Of a stretch of 64,000 nucleotides of DNA, positions 9,194 through 57,557 are shown one piece after another (position 1 is the stretch's first letter; every line of letters starts with the position of its first letter). This DNA is from Thermoplasmatota archaeon (GTDB taxonomy: Archaea > Thermoplasmatota > E2 > UBA202 > DSCA01), in assembly GCA_046498345.1 (NCBI GenBank), contig JAWOAW010000017.1:526-64525 (forward strand), given 5' to 3'. Made by a program: the position numbers and the translations under genes. The notes below the pieces were generated by a model. That model was not told where the DNA came from, made no database searches, and was given only the letters and a program-made list of their open reading frames with translations.

Positions 9194-10467
9194 TGTTCCA
9201 GATGGAGGTCGTCTGTGTGGCAGTCGTTCATCTGCGCGAAGCCGTACCTGAGGTTGAGGTTGATGTGGAGCACGGCCCAGGTTGCGGCTTCCTCGGCGGT
9301 GATGACCCCGTCCTCGTTGAGGTCGGCCGTGTCATCCATGCGGTCGGTGATGCCCTGCAGGGCGCCGGCCATGAGCATGGTGAGTATGCCGCCGTCCTCG
9401 GTGGCGATGGCCCGGCTGAATGTGGTTGACGCGGTGACCAGCACCCGGCCTTTTTCTTCCATGTTGGGGTCGTCGCTGAACAGGTTTGCCACACTTTCCA
9501 GGTCGTCGGGGCCGCCGAACTCTCCGGAATAGCAGGTGTCCACGATGGAGAGGATGTGCATGGAGCCGGTGTCGGCGAAGAAGGTGGCGATGTCGCCGTC
9601 GTAGAGCACGCCGTCCCATACCTGGATGGTGCCGTCGCGCGGCTCCCTGTCGTCGTCGCCCCACCATTCGATGCCGCCGTGCCCGGATATCCAGAACACC
9701 AGCCGGGACGCCTGGCCGGTATGGCTGCCCAGCCATTCCATGGCATTGCTTATGTTTTGTTTTGTGGCGCAGCCGTTGGACAGGTACATGATGTTGTCGC
9801 GGGGAAACCCGTAGTGGTTGTACAGGGTGTCGAAGGCCATGACGCCGTCCTTCCACGCTGCGATTTCGTTTCCCACCGGGTCGGTGCCGATGATGAGGGC
9901 CCATCGGTCGTCGTCTGTCTCCGTATGGTCCACGGAGATGTTGCGGCTGATGTGGGCTAGCCGGGTGCCGTTGGCGTCCTCCAGGTAGCATTCGATGCTG
10001 TGGACGCCGTAGCTGGCGAACCGGTAGGGCCACCGGAACGTGTACACCACGTCCTCGTTCAGCATCCGCCGTGTCTGGGTGGCCGCCGGCAGGCCCAGCA
10101 TGTCGCTCTGGCTGATGTCGGTGGGCAGGTAGGTGTGCTCCGTATCCCGGGATGAAAGCCGGTGTCCGTCGACCAGGCAGTGGGCTGTTCCTTCGAAGGA
10201 TTCAACATTGTGCAGAAAAACGCGGTAGGTAAGAAACACCAGGTCTCCGACGCTGACGTTGCTCATGCTGTCCCCTGCGTACTGGTAGCGCACGTCTACC
10301 TCGGGGAGCCCGTCCTGCCGGATGTCGGAGATGTCGCTGACGGGGCGATATATCTCGGCGTAGCACTGCCGGGCGATGCCCGCTGGCTCAGCGTCGCCGT
10401 TGTCGAGGCAGCCGGTGAACGGCAGCAGGAGCAGCAGGAGCACGAGCGCGGCGGGGAGGTTCCGCAT
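9190..10467 (-). CDS. Secreted caspase-fold cysteine peptidase (C13 legumain / C11-like), putative lipoprotein
   Basis: Signal peptide with a lipobox-like LLPFTGC. His/Cys dyad context WISGHGG ... IVDTCYSGEF. C-terminal DLNEDGVITAEE Ca-binding / dockerin-like loop. Confidence 0.6.
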   Translation of the reverse strand: MRNLPAALVLLLLLLPFTGCLDNGDAEPAGIARQCYAEIYRPVSDISDIRQDGLPEVDVRYQYAGDSMSNVSVGDLVFLTYRVFLHNVESFEGTAHCLVDGHRLSSRDTEHTYLPTDISQSDMLGLPAATQTRRMLNEDVVYTFRWPYRFASYGVHSIECYLEDANGTRLAHISRNISVDHTETDDDRWALIIGTDPVGNEIAAWKDGVMAFDTLYNHYGFPRDNIMYLSNGCATKQNISNAMEWLGSHTGQASRLVFWISGHGGIEWWGDDDREPRDGTIQVWDGVLYDGDIATFFADTGSMHILSIVDTCYSGEFGGPDDLESVANLFSDDPNMEEKGRVLVTASTTFSRAIATEDGGILTMLMAGALQGITDRMDDTADLNEDGVITAEEAATWAVLHINLNLRYGFAQMNDCHTDDLHLEQ

Positions 10468-42093: not shown

Positions 42094-42363
42094 TCACCCG
42101 AAATAGTGGTCCGGTTTGCCGGCGCTGCTGTGCTGCGTCTCGTGGTCGAGCAGGTCGATGCAGATGATGTTGCCCACGGGTATCACGCGTATCTTGTCGG
42201 CCAGCTCGTCGTGCTCCTCGCCCAGGCGGATGCACAATGCCTCGTCCTTGCCGATGTAGGTGAATCCTTCGAGGTTGCCATGCGATGTGAGCGGTTCTTC
42301 GCTGGCGTCCTGGGAGCGGATGATGCAGCCGGAGCCGTCGGTGAGCTCAATCTCTTCCATCAA
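42094..42363 (-). CDS. Hypothetical small beta-rich protein
   Basis: 89 aa ORF overlapping the upstream regulator by 17 nt. No family assigned. Confidence 0.35.
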   Translation of the reverse strand: MMEEIELTDGSGCIIRSQDASEEPLTSHGNLEGFTYIGKDEALCIRLGEEHDELADKIRVIPVGNIICIDLLDHETQHSSAGKPDHYFG

Positions 42364-42790
42364 GCACCCTCCGTTCGACGAGCTTGTGTAAATGCGTGAC
42401 GGTTTCAGCGTAGTTGTCCATGGCGACCTTGACGTGCGCCTCCACGAAGTTCCAGGCCTTGGCGAGGTTGCCGTAGCGCAGCCGGTAGGTCTTCCGCTGC
42501 GTGGTGCCCTCGCCGGCCTTGCCCTCCTCGAGGATGTCGAGGCCTTTGAGCTTGTTGAGATGCCGGTAGACGGTGGCCTTGGTCGCGTCGAGCTCGACGG
42601 CCAGTTCGTCCACCTGCCATTCTTTGCCGGGGTGCAGCAGGAAGCATTCGAAGAGCCGGTAGGGTATCGACGTGGTGTCGGAGCCCCGTGAAAGGTAGCC
42701 GATGTGCTTGAGAAACTGTACCGCGACGGCTTCGTAGTCGTCCTCCCCGGTGAGCGGGGTGTTTTTTGTTACCTGGAGTTGAAATCCCAT
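42347..42790 (-). CDS. Winged-helix transcriptional regulator
   Basis: wHTH-like segment VDELAVELDATKATVYRHLNKLKGLDILEE. Start at MGFQLQV. Confidence 0.55.
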   Translation of the reverse strand: MGFQLQVTKNTPLTGEDDYEAVAVQFLKHIGYLSRGSDTTSIPYRLFECFLLHPGKEWQVDELAVELDATKATVYRHLNKLKGLDILEEGKAGEGTTQRKTYRLRYGNLAKAWNFVEAHVKVAMDNYAETVTHLHKLVERRVLDGRD

Positions 42791-42847
42791 ATGCGTAATA
42801 TCTTTACGCATTTTAAATTTTTTCTCGAACGCGTAAAGGATTTAGGT

Positions 42848-43273
42848 TTATGCAACCTCGGGGCTGAACCCGCCCTTGCCCTGCTGCTGGGCTCCCTTGT
42901 CCTTGTCGAACTTGACCTGCGGCATGGGAATCGGGGGCGGCAGACGGAGGTCGCGGGACACCATGACCGCCTCGGGGAGACAAAAATGCATGATGGCGGT
43001 ATGGATATGGGAGGCCACCTCTTCGGGCATGTTCTTGTTTTCGCTCCACTGCTCCGCTATCTCCCGGGCGTTGTCAGCCGTGAAATGAAAGTCCCCTGAA
43101 AGCTTGATGAGACCGAGCGGGCCATAGCTGGCCGTATACTGGAACTCGATCGACGCCTCATTGGCACCCTTAGCAGAAAAAAGCGTGACGGTGCTGTTGT
43201 GGTCGATGCGCACGTTCTGCGGTCGCTGCTGCGGCTCCGAGTAGCGGCGCGCTTCGATGGAGGACAGCTTCAT
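42848..43273 (-). CDS. Hypothetical protein
   Basis: About 140 aa ORF. A minus-strand TATA (CATTTTATATAGTT at 43304-43317) lies upstream. No family recognised. Confidence 0.35.
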   Translation of the reverse strand: MKLSSIEARRYSEPQQRPQNVRIDHNSTVTLFSAKGANEASIEFQYTASYGPLGLIKLSGDFHFTADNAREIAEQWSENKNMPEEVASHIHTAIMHFCLPEAVMVSRDLRLPPPIPMPQVKFDKDKGAQQQGKGGFSPEVA

Positions 43274-43328
43274 GTTCGATATATTCATTCGTATCGCAAA
43301 GATGCCGGCATTTTATATAGTTTTGGCA

Positions 43329-43544
43329 TCACTTGACAGAAATACTGACGATGTTGTTGCCGCGCAGCACGACCTTGCCCAGGCGTCGTTCAGCGTCTCC
43401 CTTCGTCTCCCGGGTGTCCTCGATGACCAGGTTCATGTACTGGTCGTAGCCCGACAGCCGGCCCTCCAAAACGCGGCCGTCTTTGAGCAGAAGCGATATG
43501 TCCTTGTTGAGCGAGCTTTCTAGCAAGTCGGTTGGCAGTACCAT
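43329..43544 (-). CDS. Sm-like archaeal protein (SmAP/LSm)
   Basis: Sm1/Sm2 motifs (VLLKDGRVLEGRLSGYDQYMNLVIED...VVLRGNNIVSI). Confidence 0.9.
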   Translation of the reverse strand: MVLPTDLLESSLNKDISLLLKDGRVLEGRLSGYDQYMNLVIEDTRETKGDAERRLGKVVLRGNNIVSISVK

Positions 43545-47770: not shown

Positions 47771-48853
47771 ATGATGGAAATAGCCCAGGCCGGCATCGAC
47801 ATGCTGGCAAGCTACCTGTCCGAGCACGTGCTCACCTGCCTCATCCCGGCGTTTTTCATAGCCGGGGCCATCGCCGCCTTCGTCTCAAAGCAGAGCATCC
47901 TCCGATACTTCGGGGCGCAGGCCAAAAAATACGTCTCCTATTCCATCGCATCCGTCTCAGGGGCCATCCTGGCGGTCTGCTCGTGCACCGTCCTTCCCTT
48001 GTTTGCAGGCATCTACAAGCGTGGGGCGGGCATCGGCCCAGCATCGGCCTTCCTGTACTCCGGGCCAGCGGTCAACGTCCTGGCCATCGTGCTCACCGCC
48101 CGGATACTCGGCTGGCAGATGGGCGCCGCCCGGGCTCTCGCCGCCGTGACGATGGCCATCGTCATCGGGCTCGTCATGGCAACTGTGTTCAAGCAGCATG
48201 ACCGTGACACACAGTCCAACCCCGACTTCCAGTACCAGGCGAGCGACGACGACGAAAAACGGTGGCCGTCGCTCACCGTCTTCGTTGCCCTCGTCGCCAT
48301 TCTGGTTGTTGCGACCACCGGCATCTCCTGGATGACCAAGTTCCCCATCATATATGCGCTCACCATCCTCATCGCCGTCCTCCTCATATTCTACTACAGC
48401 CGGACGGAGGTCAAAGAATGGGGCAGCCAGACCTGGTTCCTGACCAAGCGCATTTTCCCCGTTCTGCTGGGCGGCGTGTTCCTGGTCGGCGTCATCGGCG
48501 GCGTCGCAGCGCAGTTCGTCGATGCGCCGGCGGAGGAAGCGGTCGGCGTGCTGGTCAAGGACTACATCGGCGGGAACAGCCTCACCTCCTGCTTCACCGC
48601 ATCGGTCATCGGCGCCGTGCTGTACATGCCGACGCTGCTGGAGGTTCCCATCGTCAACGACCTGTTCGGCTTTGGCTCTGGTATCATGGGAGCCGGACCG
48701 GCGCTGGCATTGCTCCTCGCCGGGCCCTCGCTGAGCCTGCCCAACATGGTGGTCATCGTCCGGGTGATGGGGCTCCGGAAGGCCGGGGTATACATTTTCC
48801 TGGTCGTCGTCATCTCAACCCTGGTGGGATACCTGTACGGAGGAATAGCATGA
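47771..48853 (+). CDS. ArsP-like (DUF318) permease
   Basis: Multi-TM permease with the conserved VCSCTVLP motif (cf. ArsP TPFcSCS..P). First gene of the ars cluster. Confidence 0.7.
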   Translation: MMEIAQAGIDMLASYLSEHVLTCLIPAFFIAGAIAAFVSKQSILRYFGAQAKKYVSYSIASVSGAILAVCSCTVLPLFAGIYKRGAGIGPASAFLYSGPAVNVLAIVLTARILGWQMGAARALAAVTMAIVIGLVMATVFKQHDRDTQSNPDFQYQASDDDEKRWPSLTVFVALVAILVVATTGISWMTKFPIIYALTILIAVLLIFYYSRTEVKEWGSQTWFLTKRIFPVLLGGVFLVGVIGGVAAQFVDAPAEEAVGVLVKDYIGGNSLTSCFTASVIGAVLYMPTLLEVPIVNDLFGFGSGIMGAGPALALLLAGPSLSLPNMVVIVRVMGLRKAGVYIFLVVVISTLVGYLYGGIA

Positions 48854-49245
48854 AGAAGTGTTGTTCTCTGGAAAACATAGATGTAGAGATCCCCGACATA
48901 ATCGAGCGGGAAATGGAAGCAAAGGGCGGCTTCGATGAGATATACCGGTCGCTGGCGAAGCATGACACGATGGCGATGGCCACCATGACAAAGGTGCTGG
49001 GCGACGAGAAACGGCTGACGATGCTCCTGGCGCTGGCCCGGCAGCGGATGTGCGTCTGCATGCTGGCGGAGCTGACCGGCTGCACCTACTCGAAATGCTC
49101 CTATCACATCGCCAGGCTAAAAGATGCCGGGCTGATAGAGCCGGAGCATCTCGGCAATTATCTCATCTACTCGCTCACCTCCCACGGTCGGGAGATAGTC
49201 GTCCTGCTGGAAAAAATATACGAAGCGGAGGAAAACCATGGATGA
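48850..49245 (+). CDS. arsR: ArsR/SmtB family arsenite-responsive repressor
   Basis: HTH with the classic As(III)-binding CVC motif (RMCVCMLAELTGC) and an N-terminal KKCC. ATGA overlap with the permease stop. Confidence 0.8.
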   Translation: MKKCCSLENIDVEIPDIIEREMEAKGGFDEIYRSLAKHDTMAMATMTKVLGDEKRLTMLLALARQRMCVCMLAELTGCTYSKCSYHIARLKDAGLIEPEHLGNYLIYSLTSHGREIVVLLEKIYEAEENHG

Positions 49246-49462
49246 AACGGCCAAAGAACTAGCTGGCATAGCGGCCTCGATAGCCGGGCACTGCCGCCCG
49301 TGTTTTAGACATCATTTGAAGAAAGCAAAAGAGCTGGAGGTGCCAATGGATGACATCAATGAAGTAGTTATGTTTGCCAGAGACATCAGTGCAGCAGGCG
49401 ACGAGAAAATGTACGCCTTTGCATCCAAGCGCCTGCAACAAAAAAGAGGTGAAAACATATGA
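49238..49462 (+). CDS. Small AhpD-like (carboxymuconolactone decarboxylase family) protein
   Basis: 74 aa with the CxxC-H core (GHCRPCFRHH). Confidence 0.55.
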   Translation: MDETAKELAGIAASIAGHCRPCFRHHLKKAKELEVPMDDINEVVMFARDISAAGDEKMYAFASKRLQQKRGENI

Positions 49463-49827
49463 AAAAGATAGGCATACTGCCCTGCTCGGGGGCCTGCAAC
49501 GTGGGGATGCTGTCCACGAAGACGGTCGTACAAACGCTTGATGAAAGAGAGAATACAGATTTCGTCTGCGCCCTAGGACTCCCCCTGGGCATCGAAGGCA
49601 TCATACATCAGGGAAAAAGCAGCGACGGCTACATCGCGCTCAACGGCTGCCCGGTCAAATGCGCGAGCAAGGCACTCAAAAGCGCGGACATACCAGTCGA
49701 CAAAGAAATAGTCATCACCGAACGATATGGCATAAAAAAGAACAAGAATCTAAACAGCGAAGAAAAACTGGAGGACATCATAGCCGAGGTGAAGCGAATG
49801 GTTGATGAGATGCAAAAAGATAGCTAG
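49459..49827 (+). CDS. DGC-domain putative metal/zinc-binding protein
   Basis: ILPCSGACNVG N-terminus and ALNGCPVKCASKA (the DGC-motif region). Confidence 0.55.
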   Translation: MKKIGILPCSGACNVGMLSTKTVVQTLDERENTDFVCALGLPLGIEGIIHQGKSSDGYIALNGCPVKCASKALKSADIPVDKEIVITERYGIKKNKNLNSEEKLEDIIAEVKRMVDEMQKDS

Positions 49828-49843
49828 ATACAATGAGGAAAAA

Positions 49844-50083
49844 ATGAAGATAGAGATACTGGGAACCGGCTGCCCGAAATGCCGGTCAACGGAAAAAATG
49901 GTCAGGCAGGTCGTCGACGAGCTCGAGATGGACGTCGATATACAGAAAGTCGAAAGCATCGAGCAGATCATGGAGCGCGGGGTCATGATGACGCCCGCCG
50001 TGGCCATCGACGACGACATCAAAATCGTGGGACACGTGCCCGGAAAGGAGGAACTCACACGGCTGCTGGAGGAGGCCGGATAA
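49844..50083 (+). CDS. Thioredoxin-family small protein (redox-active disulfide protein 2 type)
   Basis: MKIEILGTGCPKC ... PAVAIDD. CxxC is CPKC. Confidence 0.75.
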   Translation: MKIEILGTGCPKCRSTEKMVRQVVDELEMDVDIQKVESIEQIMERGVMMTPAVAIDDDIKIVGHVPGKEELTRLLEEAG

Positions 50084-50084
50084 C

Positions 50085-50405
50085 ATGCGGCTGCTGGAGG
50101 AATGGTTCCCCGAGTTCGCCGGAGAACTGGACAAGATAGACGAGCTCTACCGGGAAAAACGAATGATCGACGAAAAAACCTACCAGTTCATCTGCTTCGC
50201 CCTGGCCATCCGCGGCCGGTCGGCACCCTGCGTCCGGAAGCACTTCAAGGCAGCGCTGGAGGCCGGCGCCACGCTCAAGGAGCTGGCGTACATCATGGCC
50301 CTGGTGTTCAGGGAGAGCGCGGGCAACGACGACTGCTGGGTCCACGACGTCCTCGACGACTACACGGAATTGATGAAAAACAATGTCCGATGCTGCCCGG
50401 AGTAG
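50085..50405 (+). CDS. Carboxymuconolactone decarboxylase family protein (AhpD-like)
   Basis: 106 aa: FICFALAIRGRSAPCVRKH (CMD core). Confidence 0.6.
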   Translation: MRLLEEWFPEFAGELDKIDELYREKRMIDEKTYQFICFALAIRGRSAPCVRKHFKAALEAGATLKELAYIMALVFRESAGNDDCWVHDVLDDYTELMKNNVRCCPE

Positions 50406-50412
50406 CGATAAC

Positions 50413-50820
50413 ATGAAGACGCTAGAAATAGAATGGCGGCATCTCGAGTTGGACGGCAGCACATGCATCCGCTGCTCCGGGACGGGGCAGAGCCTGCAGC
50501 AAGCCATCGCGGAGCTGGAAAAGGAGCTGCAGCCGCGGGGCGTCGAGCTGTCGTTCACGGAGACGACACTGCCGGAGGAAAAGCTCCCTCAGTCCAACCT
50601 GATTCTCATAGACGGCCAGCCGCTCGATGACGTTCTTGCCGGTGCAGAATCCGGTGAAAACTATTGCTCGTCGTGCTCCTGCCTGACCGGCAGAGACGCA
50701 TACTGCAGGACGGTATCCTACGACGGGGAAACATACGAGGAGATACCCGAGGAAATCATCCGGGAGGCGGTCTTCACCGCGCTGGACATGGACCCCGCCG
50801 GGGAGGAGACGAAAACATGA
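50413..50820 (+). CDS. DUF2703-like Cys-rich protein
   Basis: CIRCSGTG and CSSCSC motifs. Start at MKTLEIEW. Confidence 0.45.
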   Translation: MKTLEIEWRHLELDGSTCIRCSGTGQSLQQAIAELEKELQPRGVELSFTETTLPEEKLPQSNLILIDGQPLDDVLAGAESGENYCSSCSCLTGRDAYCRTVSYDGETYEEIPEEIIREAVFTALDMDPAGEETKT

Positions 50821-51353
50821 AACACCTGGCAGCCATCCTCATAGCGGTGCTCCTCCTGGCCATGATGGGCGGCTGCCTGGAAGATAATGGAGGCAGCTCG
50901 TCCGACTACACGATAACCCATTCCGTCGGGACGGGAAGCACCGACTTCTGGACGGGATATCCCGCGGGGCATCCACGCAGCGGGGAGAACATTTCTCATC
51001 CCCAGTGGGTGCACGACAGGCTGGAAGATAGACCCCTGCTTATCCTGGCGCACAGCACCGACTGCCAGCCCTGCATCGTACAGCAGTCGGACCTAGAAGC
51101 GGTGCTCCCAGACTACCGGAACCAGATAGAATACGTGGACCTTCTGACCGACGGCAGCGACCCCCGGGCCATGGACGTCTACAACACCTATTACCCTCGG
51201 AGCGGACAATGGTACATCCCGCTCACCGTCCTCGTCTCCCGGGCATCCGTCGAGGGAGAGCAAACAATCATCTGGCACGGCAAGGTGAGCACCACCGGCA
51301 AGGACTGGCTGCGCACCTACATCGAGGATGCCATCGCATACTATGAAGGATAG
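50817..51353 (+). CDS. Secreted thioredoxin-fold lipoprotein (TlpA/ResA-like thiol-disulfide oxidoreductase)
   Basis: Signal plus lipobox-like LAMMGGC; CQPC active site (HSTDCQPCIVQ). ATGA overlap with the upstream gene. Confidence 0.6.
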   Translation: MKHLAAILIAVLLLAMMGGCLEDNGGSSSDYTITHSVGTGSTDFWTGYPAGHPRSGENISHPQWVHDRLEDRPLLILAHSTDCQPCIVQQSDLEAVLPDYRNQIEYVDLLTDGSDPRAMDVYNTYYPRSGQWYIPLTVLVSRASVEGEQTIIWHGKVSTTGKDWLRTYIEDAIAYYEG

Positions 51354-51357
51354 AAAC

Positions 51358-52701
51358 ATGAAGACAAAGAACATCGTTATTCCCGTTGCCGGTCTCGTTG
51401 CCGTTCTTGCCCTCATCGTCCTGCCGACGCTTTCCCATGGAGAAGAGTTTTCCCCGGCCCCTGATTTCACGGCTGAAGCCGTGGACGGCCGGACGTTCTC
51501 GCTGAATGAGAGCCAGGGCAACGTGACCATCCTGCACGTGCAGAACTTCGAGAACCCCATCTGCATCGAATGCGAAAAAGAGCTCCGCGGGCAGATAGAG
51601 GCGCTGGCTGATCTGTCGGCAATGAGCCACGGCAATCTCTCCATCGTGACGCTCAACCTCCGCAAAAATCCCTCCTCCGACGACGGCAAAACGCTGGCCG
51701 AGCGCTGGTACGATATAAACGTGAGCTGGTACTGGATAGAGGAGGAAGCACCCTACCAGGTGGCCGACGACTACCGGGAATATTGGACCGTGGACGGCGC
51801 CTTCGCCAACCCTACCCTCATATTAATCGGTCCCTCGCTGGACGTCATGGGCGTCTACCACGTCTACCGGATGGGAGCCGGGAAACTGGACGGCGTTCAG
51901 CCGGCGACGTCGCTGGCCGACGACGTCGAACAGATATTACAGGGAAACTGGACGACCTTCAAGGGAGAAACGAGCAGCCGGGACATCACCTTCCTGGGCA
52001 TGTTCGGGCTGGGCGTCATCACCGCGCTTTCCCCCTGCTCCATTGCCCTGCTCATCTCCATGATATCCTACGTGGGAGCAACGGCGAGTGGCACGGGAAC
52101 CAAGAGGGAGAGCTTCCGGGGGTTTGGCATGGGCGTGGTCTTTACGCTGGGGATGGCCCTGGTGTTCTTTTTCATCGGGCTGCTGATCTCGTATGCCGGA
52201 TTTTTCGTGGAGATGTCCTCTCTGTTTTATCTCATCGCCGGAGCCATACTTTTCATCTTAGGCGTCAACATCGTGTACCCGTTGAAGGATATGCTGGCAC
52301 CGCTCCTAAAAAAGAGGGACGGTGGGCAAAACATCATGGAGAAAGGCGGACGAGTCTTTGAAAGCCTGAGTAAAAGGTCGCTCGTTCTCGGCGCCTTTTT
52401 CCTGGGCATTCTTTTCGCCGTTGGATGGGCGCCCTGCGCCATCTCGCTGGTCATGCCCGTGTTCATCCTGGTGCTGGCTCAGAAGACGTCGCTGCTGATG
52501 GGTGGTCTGCTGCTCTTCGTGTTCGGCCTCGGGCACGGCGTGCCCGTCATCCCGCTCACCACGCTGACCAGGGGTATGCGCGCCAGGGTGGGAAACGCCT
52601 ATGTGACGGCCGGCCGCTACATCCAGAAGATATTCGCCGTGGCCATCCTGATCATCGCGGTGGTGTTCATGCTCCGCTACTTTGGGATACGGTTGTGGTA
52701 G
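51358..52701 (+). CDS. Fusion of a periplasmic thioredoxin-like domain (CIEC) with a CcdA/DsbD-type transmembrane thiol-disulfide transporter domain
   Basis: N-terminal signal anchor plus TlpA-like domain (FENPICIECEKE). C-terminal 6-TM domain with the two conserved Cys (ALSPCSIALL and GWAPCAISL). Confidence 0.75.
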   Translation: MKTKNIVIPVAGLVAVLALIVLPTLSHGEEFSPAPDFTAEAVDGRTFSLNESQGNVTILHVQNFENPICIECEKELRGQIEALADLSAMSHGNLSIVTLNLRKNPSSDDGKTLAERWYDINVSWYWIEEEAPYQVADDYREYWTVDGAFANPTLILIGPSLDVMGVYHVYRMGAGKLDGVQPATSLADDVEQILQGNWTTFKGETSSRDITFLGMFGLGVITALSPCSIALLISMISYVGATASGTGTKRESFRGFGMGVVFTLGMALVFFFIGLLISYAGFFVEMSSLFYLIAGAILFILGVNIVYPLKDMLAPLLKKRDGGQNIMEKGGRVFESLSKRSLVLGAFFLGILFAVGWAPCAISLVMPVFILVLAQKTSLLMGGLLLFVFGLGHGVPVIPLTTLTRGMRARVGNAYVTAGRYIQKIFAVAILIIAVVFMLRYFGIRLW

Positions 52702-52767
52702 GAAAAGAGAGGTGATTGCATACCTGATGAAAAGCTGGGTTTTTTTGAGCGGTATCTGAGCCTCTGG

Positions 52768-53763
52768 GTGGCACTGTGCATCGTTGCTGGCGTTGTTATT
52801 GGAACAGTGTTTCCCTGGTTCCCGGACATGCTGGACGGGCTGCAGTATGCACGGGTGTCGCTGCCCGTCGCCGTATTGATATGGCTGATGATATACCCCA
52901 TGATGGTCCGGGTGGATTTTTCGAGCATTCTCGAGGTCACCCGGAAGCCGCGGGGGCTGCTGGTTACCTGGGTGACCAACTGGCTGATAAAGCCATTCAC
53001 CATGTACCTGTTTGCGCTGCTGTTCTTCACATATGTATTTGCCGACTTTATCAGCCCGTCGCTGCAGGACCAGTACATCGCGGGGGCCGTGTTTCTCGGG
53101 GCGGCGCCCTGCACGGCCATGGTGTTCGTGTGGAGCTATCTGAGCAGGGGCGATGCGAGCTACACGCTGGTGCAGGTGGCCAGCAACGACCTCATCATCC
53201 TTGTCGCCTATGTCCCCATCGTGTCGTTTCTCCTGGGCATCAGCGGGCTATCTGTGCCCTATGACACGCTGGTGCTCTCCGTGGTATTGTTCGTGGTCAT
53301 CCCGCTCGCGCTGGGCTACCTCACTCGAACATGGGCGCTGAAGCGCAAAGGCAAAGCATGGCTGAACCGCGTATTCCTCCGGCGGATGCACACGGTCACC
53401 ATCATCGGGCTGCTGCTCACCCTGGTCATCCTGTTTTCGTTCCAGGGCGAGAAAATCCTTGACAACCCGCTGCACATTGCGCTCATCGCGGTGCCGTTGA
53501 CCATCCAGACCTACGTCATCTTCGGGCTGGCCTATGGCTGGAGTTTCCTCTGGCATTTGCCGCATCGCATCGCTGCGCCGGCGGCGATGATCGGGGCCAG
53601 CAATTTTTTCGAGCTGGCCGTGGCGGTCGCCATCTCCGTCTACGGGCTGGGCTCGGGAGCGGCGCTGGCCACCGTGGTCGGCGTGCTGGTGGAGGTCCCC
53701 GTCATGCTGAGCCTGGTCGCCGTGGCCAATCGGACCCGCGGCCGGTTCAGGGAGGATGTATGA
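52768..53763 (+). CDS. acr3: ACR3-family arsenite efflux transporter, with its 5' end disrupted or shifted at a T7 homopolymer
   Basis: ACR3 signatures throughout (LWVALCIVAGVVIG, MIYPMMVRVDF). The in-frame codons upstream of the GTG at 52768 read EKLGFFERYLSLWV, with no start codon. The only ATG (52727) is in the +1 frame and reads MKSWVF before a stop. Confidence 0.8.
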   Translation: MALCIVAGVVIGTVFPWFPDMLDGLQYARVSLPVAVLIWLMIYPMMVRVDFSSILEVTRKPRGLLVTWVTNWLIKPFTMYLFALLFFTYVFADFISPSLQDQYIAGAVFLGAAPCTAMVFVWSYLSRGDASYTLVQVASNDLIILVAYVPIVSFLLGISGLSVPYDTLVLSVVLFVVIPLALGYLTRTWALKRKGKAWLNRVFLRRMHTVTIIGLLLTLVILFSFQGEKILDNPLHIALIAVPLTIQTYVIFGLAYGWSFLWHLPHRIAAPAAMIGASNFFELAVAVAISVYGLGSGAALATVVGVLVEVPVMLSLVAVANRTRGRFREDV

Positions 53764-54146
53764 AAAAGATATTGTTCGTCTGCGTGGAAAACGCCTGCCG
53801 CAGCCAGATGGCCCAGGGGTTCTGCACCGCGCTGGCCGACGATGTCGAAGCGGAGAGCGCCGGCACGCAGCCGGCCGAGGAGGTGGATGATATCGCTGTA
53901 GCGGTCATGGCGGAGGCAGGCGTCGACATTTCCGGGCAGCGGCCGACGGCGATGACGGGGGAGATGAACGACCGGTTTGACATTATTGTGACGATGGGTT
54001 GCACCGATGGCTGTCCGATAACACCGAAGGAGAAAACCGTCGCCTGGAGCATTGAGGACCCGCGTGGTAAACCCGCCGGGGTCTATCGCAGGGTCAGAGA
54101 TGACATCCGGTGGCACGTTGAGCGGCTGCTTGCCGACATCCGCTAG
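53760..54146 (+). CDS. arsC: Arsenate reductase ArsC (LMW-PTP, thioredoxin-coupled type)
   Basis: CX5R P-loop ILFVCVENACRSQMA and downstream Cys (GCTDGCPI). ATGA overlap with acr3. Confidence 0.85.
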   Translation: MKKILFVCVENACRSQMAQGFCTALADDVEAESAGTQPAEEVDDIAVAVMAEAGVDISGQRPTAMTGEMNDRFDIIVTMGCTDGCPITPKEKTVAWSIEDPRGKPAGVYRRVRDDIRWHVERLLADIR

Positions 54147-54655
54147 CTTTTTTCTCTGTCGCGCAGCCCGAGGATAATCTCTGCGGTCCACCGGGCGACG
54201 TCGGCTGCCACCTGCGGGCAGGTGTCCCGTGATGCATGATCGGAGAAGGCTGCGGCTTCATCTGCGTCGAGCAAGTCATATGTCCGTCCTAACACCTGCT
54301 GCTGCACGTCGCGGCAGACCGGAGACCCGTATTTTTTTGTGAAGCGGCTGTAGAGCCGCTGGCTGTGGACGAACACCCGTCGCTCTCCCTTTCCGGCTTT
54401 GAAGTCCTCGTAGCTTCTGCCCAGCACGGCGCCGATGGCCAGCATCCCACCGGCGAGGGCGCCGCAGGTGCCAGCCGTGGACAGCGCCGCTCCCCCGGCG
54501 AGGCCGTCGCTGGCCTGGATGACCTCGGGGCCGGCTATCCCGAGTGTTTCGTGGAGCGCTGCCAGGACACACTGGGGGCAGCTGCCGATGGTATGTTCGT
54601 ATTCTCTGGCGAGCGCTGCGGCTTTTCCAACTGGGCTGTGCTCGTCCGATGTCAT
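54143..54655 (-). CDS. C_GCAxxG_C_C family putative redox-active protein
   Basis: GSCPQCVLAAL ... AGTCGALAGGMLAIG ... CRD, the hallmark C/GCAxxG/C/C arrangement. Confidence 0.7.
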   Translation of the reverse strand: MTSDEHSPVGKAAALAREYEHTIGSCPQCVLAALHETLGIAGPEVIQASDGLAGGAALSTAGTCGALAGGMLAIGAVLGRSYEDFKAGKGERRVFVHSQRLYSRFTKKYGSPVCRDVQQQVLGRTYDLLDADEAAAFSDHASRDTCPQVAADVARWTAEIILGLRDREKS

Positions 54656-54695: not shown

Positions 54696-54809
54696 TCAGC
54701 AGCCCTGCTCGCGGACCATTTTTCTGAAGCAGTCCCGGTGCCAGTGTTTTCCGCTGCGCTGTACTCCCGTGCCTTCTATCTCCTGGTTGCAGTAGTCGCA
54801 GGTGGTCAT
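54696..54809 (-). CDS. Possible 37-aa zinc-ribbon micro-protein
   Basis: MTTCDYCNQEIEGTGVQRSGKHWHRDCFRKMVREQGC. Below the ORF-track cutoff. A CxxC...HxxxC arrangement. Confidence 0.25.
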   Translation of the reverse strand: MTTCDYCNQEIEGTGVQRSGKHWHRDCFRKMVREQGC

Positions 54810-54872
54810 TGTTCGTATAACGGAACGTGAGATTAAAAAAAGTGGGGCGCAACGCTTTTATATCCGCTGTGC

Positions 54873-54885
54873 TTAACAATTGTTG
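54873..54885 (+). promoter_or_regulatory. Palindromic operator-like site TTAACAATTGTTG (core AACAATTGTT) between TATA (CTTTTATATCC at 54855-54865) and the ATG of the small Cys-rich ORF
   Basis: Direct read. The same core appears at 55105-55116. Confidence 0.5.
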
Positions 54886-54893
54886 AGGATATC

Positions 54894-55046
54894 ATGAAAG
54901 TATATCTCTGTGGAGAAAAGGGCTGTTGCCCGAGCGTTGACGTCACGGACAGCGGCGTGACCATCGGTGAAGACGACAACACGTGTACACTGACCCACGA
55001 CCAGTTCGACAGCCTGAAGCAGAAAATAAAAGCCGGCGAGCTGTAG
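54894..55046 (+). CDS. 50-aa Cys-rich small protein (hypothetical)
   Basis: MKVYLCGEKGCCPSVDVTDSGVTIGEDDNTCTLTHDQFDSLKQKIKAGEL. It has its own TATA and a terminator-like hairpin. Confidence 0.4.
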   Translation: MKVYLCGEKGCCPSVDVTDSGVTIGEDDNTCTLTHDQFDSLKQKIKAGEL

Positions 55047-55075
55047 GCCGGCTCTTTTTCCTTCTTTTTTTATAG
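55031..55075 (+). terminator. Hairpin (AGCCGGC-N9-GCCGGCT) followed by the T-rich tract CTTTTTCCTTCTTTTTTT
   Basis: Direct read. Archaeal termination at oligo-T after the small ORF stop (55044-55046). Confidence 0.45.
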
Positions 55076-55104
55076 ACCGTAACTCATTTATACAGCCACC
55101 TAAA

Positions 55105-55116
55105 TAACAATTGTTA
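55105..55116 (+). promoter_or_regulatory. Perfect 12-nt palindrome TAACAATTGTTA between TATA (CATTTATAC at 55085-55093) and the nadA ATG
   Basis: Direct read. Same spacing relative to TATA/ATG as the copy at 54873-54885. Confidence 0.5.
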
Positions 55117-55119
55117 AAA

Positions 55120-56022
55120 ATGGACGGCAGACTCGGGCAGCTCAAACAAAAACACAACGCAGTCATCCTCGCCCACAACTACCAGCGTCCCGAAGTACAA
55201 GACGTGGCCGACTACGTCGGCGACTCCCTCGGCCTGGCCATGCAGGCGTCAGAGACAAACGCAGACACCGTCGTCTTCTGCGGCGTCGACTTCATGGCCG
55301 AAACAGCGAAGATACTCAACCCGGACAAAACGGTGGTACATCCGAATGAAGAGGCGAGATGCCCCCTGGCGGCCATGGTGGACGTCGAGGGACTGCAGGC
55401 ACTCAAAGAGAAACATCCATCGGCAGGCGTGGTATCCTACGTCAACACGACCGCCGAGGTAAAGGCAGCCAGCGACATCTGCTGCACCTCATCCAACGCG
55501 GTCAAGGCCATTAAGAGCTTAGCGGAGGAAACAATCATCTTCGTACCGGACGAACACCTGGGCCGATACGCCCAGCGCTTCCTCCCCGACCGGAACCTCA
55601 TCCTGTGGCCCGGCATCTGCCCCACACATCACACCATCACAGCAGAGGACATCCAGGCGCTGCAGCACGAGCATCCCAGCGCGAAAACCATGGTACATCC
55701 CGAATGCCGGCCGGCGGTGATAGACCTCGCCGACGAGGTGCTCTCCACGGGCGGTATGATACGGGATGCCCGCTACGGGGACGCCGACGCGTTCATCGTG
55801 GGCACCGAAAAAGAGCTCTGCCACCGCCTGTCCACCGAATGCCCCGACAAGCGGTTCCATCCCATACACAAGGCTTGCTGCCCGAACATGAAGAAGATAA
55901 CGCTGGAAAAAGTTTTAAAAAGCATAGAGACGTTAACCCCCACGGTTTCCCTGTCCAGGCGTGTCATCAAAGAAGCGCGGCGGCCCCTGCAACGCATGAT
56001 GGACATGGGAAGAGGCGATTGA
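55120..56022 (+). CDS. nadA: Quinolinate synthase A
   Basis: NAVILAHNYQ, three conserved Cys regions, a very typical NadA. A TTG at 55111 is an alternative start. Confidence 0.9.
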   Translation: MDGRLGQLKQKHNAVILAHNYQRPEVQDVADYVGDSLGLAMQASETNADTVVFCGVDFMAETAKILNPDKTVVHPNEEARCPLAAMVDVEGLQALKEKHPSAGVVSYVNTTAEVKAASDICCTSSNAVKAIKSLAEETIIFVPDEHLGRYAQRFLPDRNLILWPGICPTHHTITAEDIQALQHEHPSAKTMVHPECRPAVIDLADEVLSTGGMIRDARYGDADAFIVGTEKELCHRLSTECPDKRFHPIHKACCPNMKKITLEKVLKSIETLTPTVSLSRRVIKEARRPLQRMMDMGRGD

Positions 56023-56023
56023 C

Positions 56024-57175
56024 ATGAAACAGATATACCTCGACCATGCGGCTACCACGCCGGTCGACCCCGACGTGCTCGAAGCCATGACCCCCTATTT
56101 CACCGACACATACGGAAACGCCTCCTCGCTGCACAGCCAGGGGACGGCAGCAAAACAGGCCCTCGAGCAAAGCCGGGAGCAGGTCGCCGGCCTCATCGGC
56201 GCCGACCCCGACGAGGTCATTTTCACGGGAAGCGGCACCGAAAGCGACAACCTCGCAGTCAAAGGCGTTGCCATGCAGCACGGCGGCGGCCACGTCATCA
56301 CCAGCCAGATAGAACACCCGGCGGTGCTGCAGCCCTGCAAACATCTCGAAAAAAAGGGCTTCGACGTAACCTATCTTCCCGTCGACGAACACGGCATGGT
56401 TGACCCCTCCGATGTCGGCGACGCGATACGGAGCGACACCCTCCTGGTCAGCGTCATGCACGCCAACAACGAGATCGGGACCATCGAGCCAGTCAAAGAG
56501 ATAGCACGGATTGCCCACGAGCACGAGGTGGCGGTGCACACCGACGCGGTGCAGACAGTGGGCAAAATCCCCGTGGACGTCCGCGAGCTCGGCGTCGACA
56601 TGCTCTCCCTGTCGGCACACAAAATATACGGGCCAAAGGGAGTCGGCGCCTTATACGTCCGGGAGGGCACCCGACTGGAGCCGCTGCTCCACGGCGGTGG
56701 CCACGAACACGGGCTGCGCTCCTCGACCGAAAACGTTCCCGGCATCGTCGGCCTCGGCACGGCATGCCAGCTGGCCAAGACGCGGCATGATGGAGAACAG
56801 AAGCGCCTCACGGGGCTCCGGGACCGGCTGATAGACGGCGTGCTGGACATCGAGGAAACATATCTCAACGGGCATCCCATCCAACGATTGCCCAACAACG
56901 CCCATTTCCGTTTTACCGCCATCGAGGGCGAATCACTGCTGCTGAGCCTGGACGAAAAGGGCATCGCAGCATCGACGGGCTCCGCCTGCTCCTCGAAAAA
57001 GCTGCAGGCCTCGCACGTCCTGCTGGCCATCGGGCTGGACAAGGTCGACGCCCATGGCTCCCTCCGGCTCACGCTGGGCAGGGACAACACCGAGGAGGAC
57101 GTCGACACCGTGCTCGACGTGCTTCCCGGCGTCATAGAGCGACTCCGCGAGATGTCCCCATTATGGAGCAGATAA
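56024..57175 (+). CDS. iscS: Cysteine desulfurase (IscS/NifS class)
   Basis: PLP-Lys context (SLSAHKIYGPKGVGALY) and the catalytic Cys loop (ASTGSACSS). Confidence 0.9.
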   Translation: MKQIYLDHAATTPVDPDVLEAMTPYFTDTYGNASSLHSQGTAAKQALEQSREQVAGLIGADPDEVIFTGSGTESDNLAVKGVAMQHGGGHVITSQIEHPAVLQPCKHLEKKGFDVTYLPVDEHGMVDPSDVGDAIRSDTLLVSVMHANNEIGTIEPVKEIARIAHEHEVAVHTDAVQTVGKIPVDVRELGVDMLSLSAHKIYGPKGVGALYVREGTRLEPLLHGGGHEHGLRSSTENVPGIVGLGTACQLAKTRHDGEQKRLTGLRDRLIDGVLDIEETYLNGHPIQRLPNNAHFRFTAIEGESLLLSLDEKGIAASTGSACSSKKLQASHVLLAIGLDKVDAHGSLRLTLGRDNTEEDVDTVLDVLPGVIERLREMSPLWSR

Positions 57176-57176
57176 C

Positions 57177-57557
57177 ATGAGCATATATACCGACAAGGTC
57201 ATGGAGCACTTTCGCAACCCCCGCAACATGGGCGAGCTCGAAAACCCCGACGGCGTCGGCAAGGTCGGCAACCCGGTCTGCGGCGACGTGATGACCATCC
57301 ACATCAAGGTCGAGGACGACAGGCTGGCGGACATCAAGTTCAAGACGTTCGGATGCGCCGCTGCCATCGCCACCAGCAGCATGATAACCGAGCTGGCCAA
57401 AGATATGACGCTCGACGAGGCAATGCAGGTGAGTAACGAGGACGTCGCCGACGCCCTGGAAGGGCTTCCCCAGGTCAAGATGCACTGCTCCAACCTGGCC
57501 GCCGAGGGGCTGCACAAGGCCATCCAAGACTACCGGGAAAAACAGGGAAAGGGTTAA
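57177..57557 (+). CDS. iscU: Fe-S cluster assembly scaffold IscU/NifU-like
   Basis: Three conserved Cys (GNPVCGDVM, FGCAAAIA, HCSNLA). Confidence 0.9.
   Translation: MSIYTDKVMEHFRNPRNMGELENPDGVGKVGNPVCGDVMTIHIKVEDDRLADIKFKTFGCAAAIATSSMITELAKDMTLDEAMQVSNEDVADALEGLPQVKMHCSNLAAEGLHKAIQDYREKQGKG

What the first reader, a model, noticed from the sequence alone, without database searches (positions are those of the whole stretch)
54855..55120. Identical palindromic site TAACAATTGTT at the same promoter position of nadA and of a 50-aa Cys-rich ORF
Both promoters have the same layout: TATA (CTTTTATATCC / CATTTATAC), then about 19 nt, then AACAATTGTT, then about 10 nt, then ATG. That places the palindrome over the expected transcription start, the classic position for an archaeal repressor. 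The nadA copy is a perfect 12-mer palindrome, TAACAATTGTTA. Archaeal NAD-biosynthesis regulators are essentially uncharacterised. Shared control with a Cys-rich micro-protein directly upstream of the nadA-iscS-iscU unit hints at an Fe-S/NAD-linked regulon.
Basis: seen in the sequence. Interest (0 to 1): 0.5.

Follow-up and report, generated by a model that had tools for sequence, protein, structure and literature searches.

The report
Conserved operator for archaeal Fe-S/NAD genes
The repeated palindrome is a real, evolutionarily conserved repressor-type DNA site in front of an iron-sulfur-assembly/NAD operon and a tiny cysteine-rich gene, and comparison with other archaea points to an uncharacterised small cysteine-containing helix-turn-helix protein as its regulator.

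Summary
TAACAATTGTT occurs exactly twice in 64 kb, 17-18 nt after the start of a TATA box. One copy precedes a 50-aa Cys-rich ORF. The other precedes nadA-iscS-iscU.

Within the window this is only moderately unusual; the comparative evidence decides.
- Both sites are invariant in relatives while their flanks diverge.
- A close relative that lost nadA keeps TATA plus palindrome before iscS-iscU.
- The palindrome precedes the small ORF in about 12 lineages, down to 58% protein identity.
- The consensus is the 14-bp dyad TTAAC-AATT-GTTAA.

The same dyad sits in or near the promoter of operons encoding one subfamily of a small XRE-like HTH protein with invariant Cys5 and CxxC. This held in 6 of 6 independent loci: TF-nadA, TF-iscS-iscU-nadA-thiI and cysE-cysK-TF. 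It was absent from the other subfamilies examined. That protein has no dedicated Pfam or NCBIfam family, no solved structure, and no literature that I could find.

Best reading: a repressor operator of a cysteine / Fe-S (MIS) / NadA / sulfur-transfer regulon, not an NAD-specific one. The regulator gene itself was not found in the window or its closest relatives. The effector, possibly an Fe-S cluster or thiol status, is inferred.

The parts
54857..54864 (+). TATA box (TTTATATC) of the small-ORF promoter
   Evidence: Read. It is invariant or near-invariant in the alignment of orthologous promoters from the window, L098, L001 and L099.
54873..54886 (.). Operator 1: TTAACAATTGTTGA (12-mer core TAACAATTGTTG at 54874-54885). 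It lies between the TATA box and the predicted transcription start of the 50-aa ORF.
   Evidence: The core is invariant in L098, L001 and L099, with 1 change in L086, while the flanks diverge. The same dyad lies upstream of small-ORF homologues in L100-L105, L107-L109 and L111.
54894..55046 (+). 50-aa Cys-rich ORF (MKVYLCGEKGCCPSV...). Cys6, Cys11, Cys12 and Cys31 are conserved. This is a core regulon member of unknown function.
   Evidence: 18 homologues; alignment A2; 88 cluster representatives. The AF2 model has pLDDT 84 and a b-b-b-b-a fold. No Pfam, NCBIfam or PDB match.
55027..55071 (+). Terminator-like hairpin (AGCCGGC...GCCGGCT) followed by T5 and T7 runs. It separates the small-ORF transcription unit from the nadA promoter.
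   Evidence: -15.8 kcal/mol, z = -1.98, followed by T runs at 55055-55059 and 55065-55071. The hairpin and T run are also present in L001.
55087..55094 (+). TATA box (TTTATACA) of the nadA-iscS-iscU promoter
   Evidence: It is conserved in L001, L099, L002 and (as TATATAAC) L098.
55104..55117 (.). Operator 2: ATAACAATTGTTAA (perfect 12-mer palindrome at 55105-55116). It ends 3 nt before the nadA ATG.
   Evidence: It is identical in L001, L099 and L098. In L098 nadA is deleted and the site precedes iscS-iscU. L002 carries the variant TAACGATTGTGA.
55120..56022 (+). nadA (quinolinate synthase, a [4Fe-4S] enzyme)
   Evidence: Pfam NadA, E=2e-119.
56024..57175 (+). iscS/nifS-like cysteine desulfurase (MisS-type); 1-nt gap after nadA
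   Evidence: Pfam Aminotran_5, E=1e-91. Gene spacing.
57177..57557 (+). iscU (NifU_N scaffold, MisU-type); 1-nt gap after iscS
   Evidence: Pfam NifU_N, E=2e-49.

Best explanation
The two palindromes are operators for one dimeric helix-turn-helix repressor. Each is a 14-bp dyad, TTAAC-AATT-GTTAA, in which TAAC and GTTA are the contacted half-sites and the central AATT is a tolerant spacer.

Each operator lies between the TATA box and the transcription start, at about -13 to -1. A bound protein there would block RNA polymerase recruitment or promoter opening at two separate transcription units: the 50-aa Cys-rich ORF, and nadA-iscS-iscU.

The regulator is most likely a member of one subfamily ('A-type') of an uncharacterised family of small archaeal proteins (about 105-130 aa). 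These have an XRE-like HTH, an invariant N-terminal Pro-Cys-Glu and a C-terminal CxxC. In other lineages this protein is encoded inside operons that carry the same dyad in or near their promoter.

The regulon is centred on sulfur mobilisation:
- cysteine synthesis (cysE-cysK);
- the minimal IscS/IscU (MIS) Fe-S system;
- the Fe-S enzyme NadA;
- ThiI/ThiF-type sulfur transfer;
- the Cys-rich miniprotein.

What is shown: the sites, their conservation, their position relative to TATA and start codons, and their co-occurrence with the regulator gene. What is inferred: that binding represses, that the A-type protein is the binder in this organism, and that its cysteines sense Fe-S cluster, thiol or sulfur status in an IscR/CymR-like feedback.
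For: 1. The site is real and selected.
- Two exact copies against 0.01 expected.
- The TATA box and the dyad are the only invariant blocks in alignments of orthologous promoters whose NadA proteins are 68-76% identical.
- In about 131 kb of high-GC relatives there are 11 sites with at most 1 mismatch. All are intergenic, and I estimate roughly 0.1 expected from base composition.

2. A natural deletion. L098 is 87% identical in DNA to the window. It has lost nadA except for about 40 codons, yet keeps TATA, then 10 nt, then the exact TAACAATTGTTA, then 3 nt, then ATG in front of iscS-iscU. The surrounding promoter is unalignable.

3. The small-ORF promoter carries the dyad in about 12 lineages, down to 58% protein identity and in different genomic contexts.

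4. Site matrix from 27 contexts: T1, A3, C4, G9 and T10 are invariant; the central positions vary (A/G, T/C, ATAT). A 5-4-5 dyad places the half-site centres about 9 bp apart. From general knowledge of HTH operators, that fits an HTH dimer.

5. Regulator link. The dyad lies in or near the promoter of A-type TF operons in 6 of 6 independent loci:
- L007 and L095-97: TF-nadA, exact 12-mer, flanks changed.
- L124: TF-nadA, TTAACAATCGTTAA 8 nt before the ATG.
- L118: TF-iscS-iscU-nadA-PP-loop-thiI.
- L114 and L119/120: cysE-cysK-TF, exact 14-mer with unrelated flanks.
- L108, L109 and L111: the TF lies about 6 kb from the small ORF, with TAACATATGTTA upstream.
I estimate the background in AT-rich control loci at about 1 site per 100 kb.
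Other TF subfamilies lack this dyad but keep the same gene neighbourhood, with their own palindromes at the same promoter position.

6. The TF is a plausible sensor. Cys5, Cys89 and Cys92 are invariant in 28 diverse members. Long forms add a C..H...CxxC segment.

7. Every site that has a recognisable TATA box lies downstream of it. From established knowledge of archaeal regulators such as MDR1, LrpA, Phr and NrpR, that is the position used for repression.

8. The dyad does not fold as RNA (z = -0.27).
Against: - No member of the TF family is encoded in the 64-kb window or in about 50 kb from its closest relatives (tblastn; profile search best E=4.5). Its presence in this organism is an extrapolation.
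- No binding, transcription-start or expression data exist.
- In L086 two sites flank a nikR gene, their position relative to a TATA box is ambiguous, and one site has no TATA.
- Operator-to-TATA spacing falls into two classes, 15-18 nt and 6-10 nt.
- The effector is pure inference. The short L007-type TFs have only three Cys.
- In the D-type clade the ACAATTGT-like sequence at nadA is poorly conserved and overlaps a GTG start codon.
Confidence: 0.62

Rival explanations
1. The palindrome is the operator of an NAD- or niacin-sensing regulator dedicated to NAD biosynthesis. This would be an archaeal counterpart of NadR, NiaR or NrtR.
For: nadA is the first gene behind operator 2. nadA is next to the candidate TF in several lineages: L007, L095, L124, L118 and the D-type clade. 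In B. subtilis, nifS and nadBCA share the NiaR repressor (PMC2330245).
Against: - L098 keeps the operator after losing nadA.
- The dyad also precedes cysE-cysK (L114, L119), a thiN/thiI-thiF divergon (L086), and the Cys-rich ORF in many genomes where nadA is not adjacent.
- The candidate TF has only about 50 residues beyond the HTH. No 3H, Nudix or NMN-adenylyltransferase domain is detected.
- The dyad does not match the NadR box TGTTTA-N6-TAAACA.
- No nadB or nadC was seen among the targets.
Confidence: 0.08
2. A metal(loid) regulator encoded nearby binds the site. Candidates are the ArsR/SmtB proteins at 48850-49245 and 42347-42811, or a NikR (window 5158-5583; also the nikR flanked by sites in L086). 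On this reading the small Cys protein is a metal(loid)-binding accessory of the neighbouring ars-like cluster.
For: - In the window, L086 and L098 the small ORF follows an ars-like cluster: ArsP, ArsR, Trx, DUF2703, DsbD, ACR3, ArsC.
- In L082-84 it lies a few kb from ArsP and two ArsR genes.
- In L086 two sites flank nikR.
- Distant small-ORF homologues (L112, L113) carry a different, ArsR-like long palindrome.
Against: - In L001 and L099 the small ORF, nadA and both operators sit next to sucD and a tRNA gene, with no ars genes.
- No copy of the dyad with up to 3 mismatches lies in front of the window's ars-like operon or near the nikR-like gene.
- A compact 12-14-bp dyad does not fit the two distant half-sites of known NikR operators (own knowledge; not tested).
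- The motif tracks the A-type HTH gene in 6 of 6 loci that lack ars or nik genes at the site.
Confidence: 0.1
3. The 50-aa protein itself binds the palindrome, autoregulating and co-regulating the isc/nadA operon.
Against: - PC4/Pur-type folds bind single strands, not dyad duplexes.
- The dyad occurs at TF, cys and isc operons in loci with no small ORF in up to 16 kb.
- An HTH dimer explains the 5-4-5 dyad more simply.
Confidence: 0.05
4. There is no dedicated factor. The shared sequence is a chance repeat, a generic AT-rich promoter-proximal or initiator element, or a leftover of a duplicated or mobile promoter cassette.
For: - Nine of 2775 promoter pairs in the window share 11-mers or longer.
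- The region between TATA and the transcription start is normally AT-rich in archaea.
- The small ORF with its promoter is found in several different genomic contexts.
Against: - Only these two of about 75 promoters in the window have it.
- The dyad symmetry and its invariant positions are preserved across genomes from 31% to 62% GC, while everything around it changes.
- The two promoters share nothing but the TATA box and the dyad.
- The dyad recurs at unrelated operons next to one TF subfamily.
Confidence: 0.03

Closest known systems
IscR (Rrf2 family) control of isc/suf operons in bacteria; also SufR and RisR
   Same: A Cys-containing DNA-binding protein is encoded with, and autoregulates, the cysteine desulfurase/scaffold operon. 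The logic would be feedback from Fe-S status. Here the TF is the first gene of TF-iscS-iscU-nadA in L118 and lies divergent to iscS in the D-type clade.
   Different: The protein family is unrelated: an XRE-like HTH with no Rrf2 match. The operator differs, being a 14-bp TTAAC-N4-GTTAA dyad. The promoter is archaeal (TATA/TFB). The regulon adds cysE-cysK, nadA, thiI and a miniprotein. Cluster binding is not shown.
NiaR (YrxA) regulon of Bacillus: the nifS-niaR / nadBCA divergon
   Same: The regulator gene is linked to a NifS-type desulfurase and to NAD de novo genes. NifS serves NadA maturation (PMC2330245; PMC13066941).
   Different: NiaR is an HTH_11 + 3H niacin sensor. No such domains are present here. 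The site persists without nadA, and the targets extend to cysteine and thiamine sulfur metabolism.
Archaeal repressors that bind between the TATA box and the transcription start (MDR1, LrpA, Phr, NrpR, TrmB-like)
   Same: A dyad operator lies immediately downstream of, or abutting, the TATA box and overlaps the start site. This implies a block of RNA polymerase recruitment (own knowledge of these systems; position shown).
   Different: The protein family and the motif are different. None of those regulators is known to control isc/nadA.
XRE/Cro-type HTH repressors (e.g. phage 434 Cro/cI, ClgR, R-M controller proteins)
   Same: The HTH_3 signature reaches the Pfam cutoff in the tabulated member (P0078, 26.8 bits against a cutoff of 23) and matches 22 of 28 members at E <= 0.001. 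The weak best structural neighbours are ClgR, C.BclI and HigA. The operator is a 14-bp dyad with a non-conserved centre.
   Different: There is an extra long N-terminal helix carrying the invariant P-C-E, and a helical C-terminal Cys-rich module. There is no significant global structural match (best E = 0.4), and the host is archaeal.
MIS (minimal iron-sulfur) system MisS/MisU of archaea
   Same: The regulated iscS-iscU pair has the MIS make-up: desulfurase plus IscU-type scaffold, with no chaperones or carriers (definition in PMC13066941).
   Different: MIS is the target, not the element. The 2026 review read here describes MIS as the least studied Fe-S biogenesis system; my searches found no report of its regulation.

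Membership tests
Archaeal repressor operator (TF site between TATA box and transcription start) | Dyad-symmetric sequence of about 12-20 bp | tested here: met
   There is a perfect 12-mer palindrome at 55105-55116. The 14-bp consensus from 27 contexts is TTAACAATTGTTAA.
Archaeal repressor operator (TF site between TATA box and transcription start) | Located downstream of the TATA box and overlapping the transcription start | tested here: inconclusive
   The position relative to TATA (17-18 nt from TATA start) and to the ATG (3-8 nt) is shown. The transcription start itself is only predicted from the TATA position; no mapping data exist.
Archaeal repressor operator (TF site between TATA box and transcription start) | Conserved in orthologous promoters while the flanks diverge | tested here: met
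   Alignments A4 and A5; L098 deletion variant; about 12 small-ORF lineages.
Archaeal repressor operator (TF site between TATA box and transcription start) | Bound by a cognate factor, with a repressive effect | not testable with these tools
   This needs EMSA or footprinting, in vitro transcription, or genetics.
Uncharacterised Cys-HTH regulator family, A-type (candidate binder) | Regulator gene co-localised with candidate sites in several genomes (autoregulation pattern) | tested here: met
   Six of 6 independent A-type loci carry the site: L007/L095-97, L124, L118, L114, L119/120 and L108/109/111.
Uncharacterised Cys-HTH regulator family, A-type (candidate binder) | Regulator present in the genome that carries the window | tested here: not met
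   It was not found in the window, L001, L002, L098, L099 or L086/87. This covers only about 5% of a genome, so absence from the organism is not shown.
XRE-family HTH (Pfam PF01381 HTH_3) | HTH_3 profile match above the gathering score | tested here: met
   P0078 scores 26.8 bits against a cutoff of 23. Twenty-two of 28 members match at E <= 0.001. The match covers only about 30 residues (helix 2, turn, helix 3).
IscR / Rrf2 family | Rrf2 winged-helix domain | tested here: not met
   There is no Rrf2 hit in Pfam or NCBIfam for any TF member.
IscR / Rrf2 family | Three Cys (plus one other ligand) binding an Fe-S cluster | not testable with these tools
   Three invariant Cys exist (C5, C89, C92), but cluster binding needs biochemistry.
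NadR / NiaR / NrtR NAD regulators | Effector domain (NMNAT/RNK, 3H, or Nudix) fused to the HTH | tested here: not met
   No such domain is present in the candidate TF or in genes flanking the sites in the window.
NadR / NiaR / NrtR NAD regulators | Known operator consensus (e.g. NadR TGTTTA-N6-TAAACA) | tested here: not met
   The dyad TTAAC-N4-GTTAA differs from that consensus (for the NadR consensus; for this site).
ArsR/SmtB operator | Site in front of the operon that encodes the ArsR protein | tested here: not met
   No copy with up to 3 mismatches lies near the ars-like operon at 47771-54146 or its upstream region. ArsR was identified at 48850-49245.
MIS Fe-S system (regulated target) | Adjacent IscS-like desulfurase and IscU-like scaffold, without chaperones or A-type carrier | tested here: met
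   Pfam Aminotran_5 and NifU_N, separated by 1-nt gaps; the following genes are unrelated. Phylogenetic placement within MisS/MisU was not tested.

The most novel reading that the evidence does not exclude
The dyad and the Cys-HTH protein together form the first described transcriptional circuit for Fe-S/sulfur homeostasis in archaea. On this reading the regulator is an Fe-S-cluster-sensing (or persulfide-sensing) repressor of a protein family unrelated to IscR, SufR or CymR. It would coordinate cysteine synthesis, the minimal MIS Fe-S machinery, NadA maturation and thio-cofactor sulfur transfer. The 50-aa Cys-rich miniprotein would be a previously unrecognised core component of that pathway, for example a cluster or sulfur carrier, or a co-regulator. 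Subfamilies of the regulator would have co-evolved distinct operators: TAAC-N4-GTTA, TTAC-N5-GTAA and GTTA-N8-TAAC.
Probability: 0.35. Interest if true: 0.8.

Novelty: new variant of a known kind. Interest (0 to 1): 0.62.

Why it matters
A 2026 review (PMC13066941) calls the archaeal minimal IscS/IscU (MIS) system the least studied Fe-S biogenesis system. My literature searches found no regulator described for it and none for NAD synthesis in archaea.

This finding supplies three concrete, testable items:
- a cis-element, TTAACAATTGTTAA;
- a candidate trans-factor family: 2881 homologues at E <= 1e-10, with no curated family and no solved structure;
- a predicted regulon linking cysteine supply, Fe-S assembly, the Fe-S enzyme NadA, and ThiI/ThiF sulfur transfer.

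It also flags a conserved 50-aa Cys-rich protein as a likely new player. If the regulator senses an Fe-S cluster through its three invariant cysteines, it would be an independent evolutionary solution to the problem that IscR solves in bacteria.

Tried and rejected
- **Literal motif in the literature**. Only primers and unrelated sequences turned up.
- **Searches for an archaeal NAD or Fe-S regulator, and for COG2522**. Nothing relevant was found beyond bacterial NadR, NiaR and NrtR and a 2026 Fe-S review.
- **Hits in L010 and L023** (T[AC]ACAATTGTTG). These proved to be coding sequence (a ...T-I-V-N-G... segment) and were discarded.
- **ThiR (ThiN-domain regulator) as binder of the L086 thiN site.** The literature search found nothing usable, and this could not explain the nadA, isc and cys sites.
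- **NikR as binder.** Considered because two L086 sites flank nikR. Rejected as the main model: the compact dyad is a poor fit, there is no site near the window's nikR-like gene, and the motif tracks another TF.
- **RNA-level explanations.** The palindrome region does not fold better than shuffles. Rfam found nothing in L108, L109 or L111.
- **Structure of the TF.** No significant PDB neighbour by sequence or fold.
- **Looking for the TF gene in the window lineage.** tblastn and a profile search were both negative.
- **A metagenome-wide scan for TATA plus dyad.** Considered and not run. My estimate was hundreds to thousands of chance hits from AT-rich genomes for a 14-17-base AT-rich pattern.
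Full report
**1. The observation**

The window is a 61% GC archaeal segment. Its closest public relatives are uncultured Thermoplasmatota.

AACAATTGTT occurs exactly twice, at 54875-54884 and 55106-55115. Shuffles expect 0.01 copies. Allowing up to 3 mismatches to TAACAATTGTTA adds only three poor matches elsewhere, which is what chance predicts.

The first copy precedes a 50-aa ORF (54894-55046). The second precedes nadA (55120-56022). nadA is followed at 1-nt gaps by an IscS/NifS-type desulfurase (56024-57175) and an IscU scaffold (57177-57557).

Both promoters have the same layout:
- TTTATATC, 9 nt, TAACAATTGTTG, 8 nt, ATG (small ORF).
- TTTATACA, 10 nt, TAACAATTGTTA, 3 nt, ATG (nadA).

A hairpin followed by T runs separates the two units. 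They are therefore independent transcription units, each with its own site.

With the usual archaeal TATA-to-start distance (established knowledge), the dyads cover roughly -13 to -1.

One caution applies. Nine of 2775 pairs of 60-nt upstream regions in this window share an 11-mer or longer. The window by itself is therefore suggestive, not conclusive.

**2. Conservation**

The nearest genome representative, L001, has 76% NadA identity. It holds both sites unchanged, although the small ORF there follows sucD and a tRNA gene rather than an arsenic-type cluster. The metagenome contig L099 shows the same arrangement.

In alignments of the orthologous promoters, the only invariant blocks are the TATA box and the dyad. 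L002 (68% NadA identity) lacks the small ORF and carries TAACGATTGTGA before nadA.

L098 is the most telling case. It is 87% identical in DNA to the window, but nadA is deleted except for its last ~40 codons. A TATA box, the exact TAACAATTGTTA and an ATG still precede the remnant and iscS-iscU, inside a promoter that no longer aligns with the window.

The small ORF family consists of 50-aa proteins with conserved Cys6, Cys11, Cys12 and Cys31. Its members carry the dyad upstream in about 12 lineages, down to 58% identity and 31-43% GC. Variants seen are TAACAATCGTTA, TCACAATTGTTA, TAACAATTGTTT and the exact 12-mer. In those AT-rich genomes the dyad abuts the TATA box and is followed by a 30-40-nt leader with a Shine-Dalgarno sequence.

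Twenty-seven distinct contexts give the 14-bp consensus TTAACAATTGTTAA. T1, A3, C4, G9 and T10 of the 12-mer are invariant, and the centre tolerates change.

In about 131 kb of high-GC relatives there are 11 sites with at most 1 mismatch. All are intergenic. My composition-based estimate of the expected number is about 0.1.

**3. The regulon is not NAD-specific**

In L086, a relative whose small ORF is 88% identical, five sites lie in 12 kb:
- before the small ORF;
- between a thiN-AIRS-thiI operon and a ThiF-like gene;
- on both sides of a nikR gene, next to an AhpC/thioredoxin/DsbD fusion and a P-type ATPase;
- upstream of a DUF2703 gene.

Together with L098, this shows that nadA is one target among sulfur- and Fe-S-related genes.

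**4. The likely regulator**

In L007 (37% GC, NadA 63% identical) the exact 12-mer lies 18 nt after a TATA start. It sits in front of a 108-aa HTH gene that is directly followed by nadA. Relatives L095-97 keep the 12-mer while the flanks change.

Homologues of this protein lie next to nadA in nine further loci.

Every locus I could fetch for the same subfamily ('A-type', at least 43% identical to the L007 protein) carries the dyad in or near its operon promoter:

| Locus | Operon or arrangement | Site |
|---|---|---|
| L007, L095-97 | TF-nadA | exact TAACAATTGTTA |
| L124 (50% GC) | TF-nadA | TTAACAATCGTTAA, 8 nt before the ATG |
| L118 | TF-iscS-iscU-nadA-PP-loop ATPase-thiI | TAACGATTGTTA |
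| L114 | cysE-cysK-TF | exact 14-mer |
| L119/120 | cysE-cysK-TF | exact 14-mer, flanks unrelated to L114 |
| L108, L109, L111 | TF about 6 kb from the dyad-bearing small ORF | TAACATATGTTA upstream |

That is 6 of 6 independent loci. My estimate of the background in control loci is about one site per 100 kb.

Other subfamilies lack this dyad but keep the same neighbourhood and the same promoter logic:
- D-type: nadA> <TF iscS>, with a conserved ATTACGGTGTAAT between the TATA box and the iscS ATG.
- C-type: TF-cysK-cysE-cysS near iscS-iscU, with CCGTTA-N8-TAACGG after the TATA box.
- One further type lies between thi4 and thiS-thiF.

The family is large, with 2881 proteins at E <= 1e-10. Sources annotate it only as 'predicted transcriptional regulator'. 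It gives a partial HTH_3 match and nothing else in Pfam or NCBIfam. It has no solved relative by sequence or fold.

The AF2 model is all-helical, and helices 2-3 form the HTH. Pro4-Cys5-Glu6 and Cys89-x-x-Cys92 are invariant in 28 diverse members. Longer forms add a C..H...CxxC segment.

**5. Mechanism**

Shown:
- a conserved 5-4-5 dyad between the TATA box and the start codon of two units in the window;
- the same dyad at cys, isc, nadA and thi operons that encode one HTH subfamily.

Inferred:
- A dimer of that HTH protein binds the dyad. Half-site centres about 9 bp apart suit an HTH dimer.
- Binding represses by occluding RNA polymerase recruitment, as for other archaeal repressors that bind downstream of the TATA box.
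- The invariant cysteines report Fe-S cluster or thiol/sulfur status, so the circuit would be a feedback loop on sulfur mobilisation.

B. subtilis uses a dedicated NifS for NadA maturation, and archaeal IscS-IscU pairs are classed as the little-studied MIS system (PMC13066941; PMC2330245). Both points make the nadA-iscS-iscU grouping functionally coherent.

**6. Weak points**

- No family member is encoded in the window or in the roughly 50 kb from its closest relatives. The regulator of this particular organism is therefore extrapolated.
- Transcription starts are unmapped.
- Two L086 sites have an ambiguous position relative to a TATA box.
- TATA-to-operator spacing falls into two classes.
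- The effector is a guess.
- The function of the 50-aa protein remains unknown. It has a b-b-b-b-a fold with only weak structural neighbours, and 88 mostly stand-alone cluster representatives.

**7. Rivals**

| Rival | Why it fails |
|---|---|
| NAD-specific regulator | Contradicted by L098 and by the cys and thi targets |
| ArsR or NikR proteins encoded nearby | The L001/L099 context has no ars genes, and the dyad is absent from the ars and nik promoters |
| Small protein as the binder | Lacks support |
| Chance or a generic promoter element | Excluded by the comparative data |
| RNA structure | The dyad region does not fold better than shuffles |

**8. Verdict**

This is a real, conserved operator.

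The kind of element, a repressor site in an archaeal promoter, is known. The motif, the candidate regulator family and the regulon appear undescribed. They offer a direct experimental entry into the regulation of archaeal Fe-S/sulfur metabolism.

Noticed in passing
window 47771-54146: A long same-strand ars-like cluster lies directly upstream of the finding. In order: ArsP_1 permease, ArsR (48850-49245), CMD-like, DGC-domain protein, Thioredoxin_3, CMD, DUF2703, an unknown gene, DsbD-like, ACR3 (SBF) and an LMW-phosphatase-type ArsC. Relatives L086 and L098 carry versions with parts deleted.
   Followed up: partly
window 54696-54809 (-) and 54143-54655 (-): A 37-aa zinc-finger-like ORF (MTTCDYCNQEIEG...HWHRDCF; Pfam LIM E=6e-5) is transcribed divergently from the small ORF, upstream of a C_GCAxxG_C_C gene. 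It is conserved at protein level in L098. In L086 the C_GCAxxG gene was not called and looks degraded.
   Followed up: partly
L098:2594-2716 (aligns to window 55906-56022): nadA is deleted in this close relative except for its last ~40 codons. These now form a 40-aa ORF starting right after the operator. DsbD-ACR3 (window ~50823-53605) is also missing.
   Followed up: yes
L086:6115 (P0005): The small-ORF copy in L086/L087 has Cys6 replaced by Arg. Its promoter lacks a recognisable TATA box and the operator has one change (TCAC...). This may be a decaying copy.
   Followed up: no
L112:~9930-9990, L113: The most distant small-ORF homologues (44-46% identity) carry a different long palindrome upstream, ATATTCATATATTTGAATAT. 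That suggests control by another regulator.
   Followed up: no
L016:4177-4221 and 8 related loci: In the D-type clade the TF gene sits between nadA (convergent) and iscS (divergent). The 45-nt TF-iscS spacer is almost invariant and contains ATTACGGTGTAAT between a TATA box and the iscS ATG.
   Followed up: partly
L088:7900-8000: The promoter of the C-type TF (RBG_16_62_10, 62% GC) has CCGTTA-N8-TAACGG and CGATAA-N6-TTATCG repeats after its TATA box. The half-sites resemble GTTA/TAAC but in the opposite arrangement.
   Followed up: no
L108:12284-12560, L109:12923-13198, L111:8869-8988: Downstream of the TAACATATGTTA site there is a stretch of up to ~280 nt (to the next ORF in L109) with no ORF. 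It contains a conserved CAAAGGGGACAAA. No Rfam family matches, so it may be an unannotated small RNA or leader.
   Followed up: partly
P0139-P0156: About 214-224-aa proteins consist of two tandem copies of the Cys-HTH module. These would be single-chain 'dimers' of the regulator family.
   Followed up: no
window 5158-5583 (+) and 42347-42811 (-): The window also encodes a NikR-type regulator (RHH_1 + NikR_C) and a second ArsR/HTH_20-type regulator. Neither has the dyad nearby.
   Followed up: partly
window, upstream of 42848-43288 (-) and 43329-43544 (-), and other pairs: Several other pairs of 60-nt upstream regions share exact 11-14-mers. Examples are a 14-mer between the regions upstream of these two genes, and 12-mers for the pairs 34171/52768 and 10541/32870. 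I did not examine whether they are regulatory, coding or chance.
   Followed up: no
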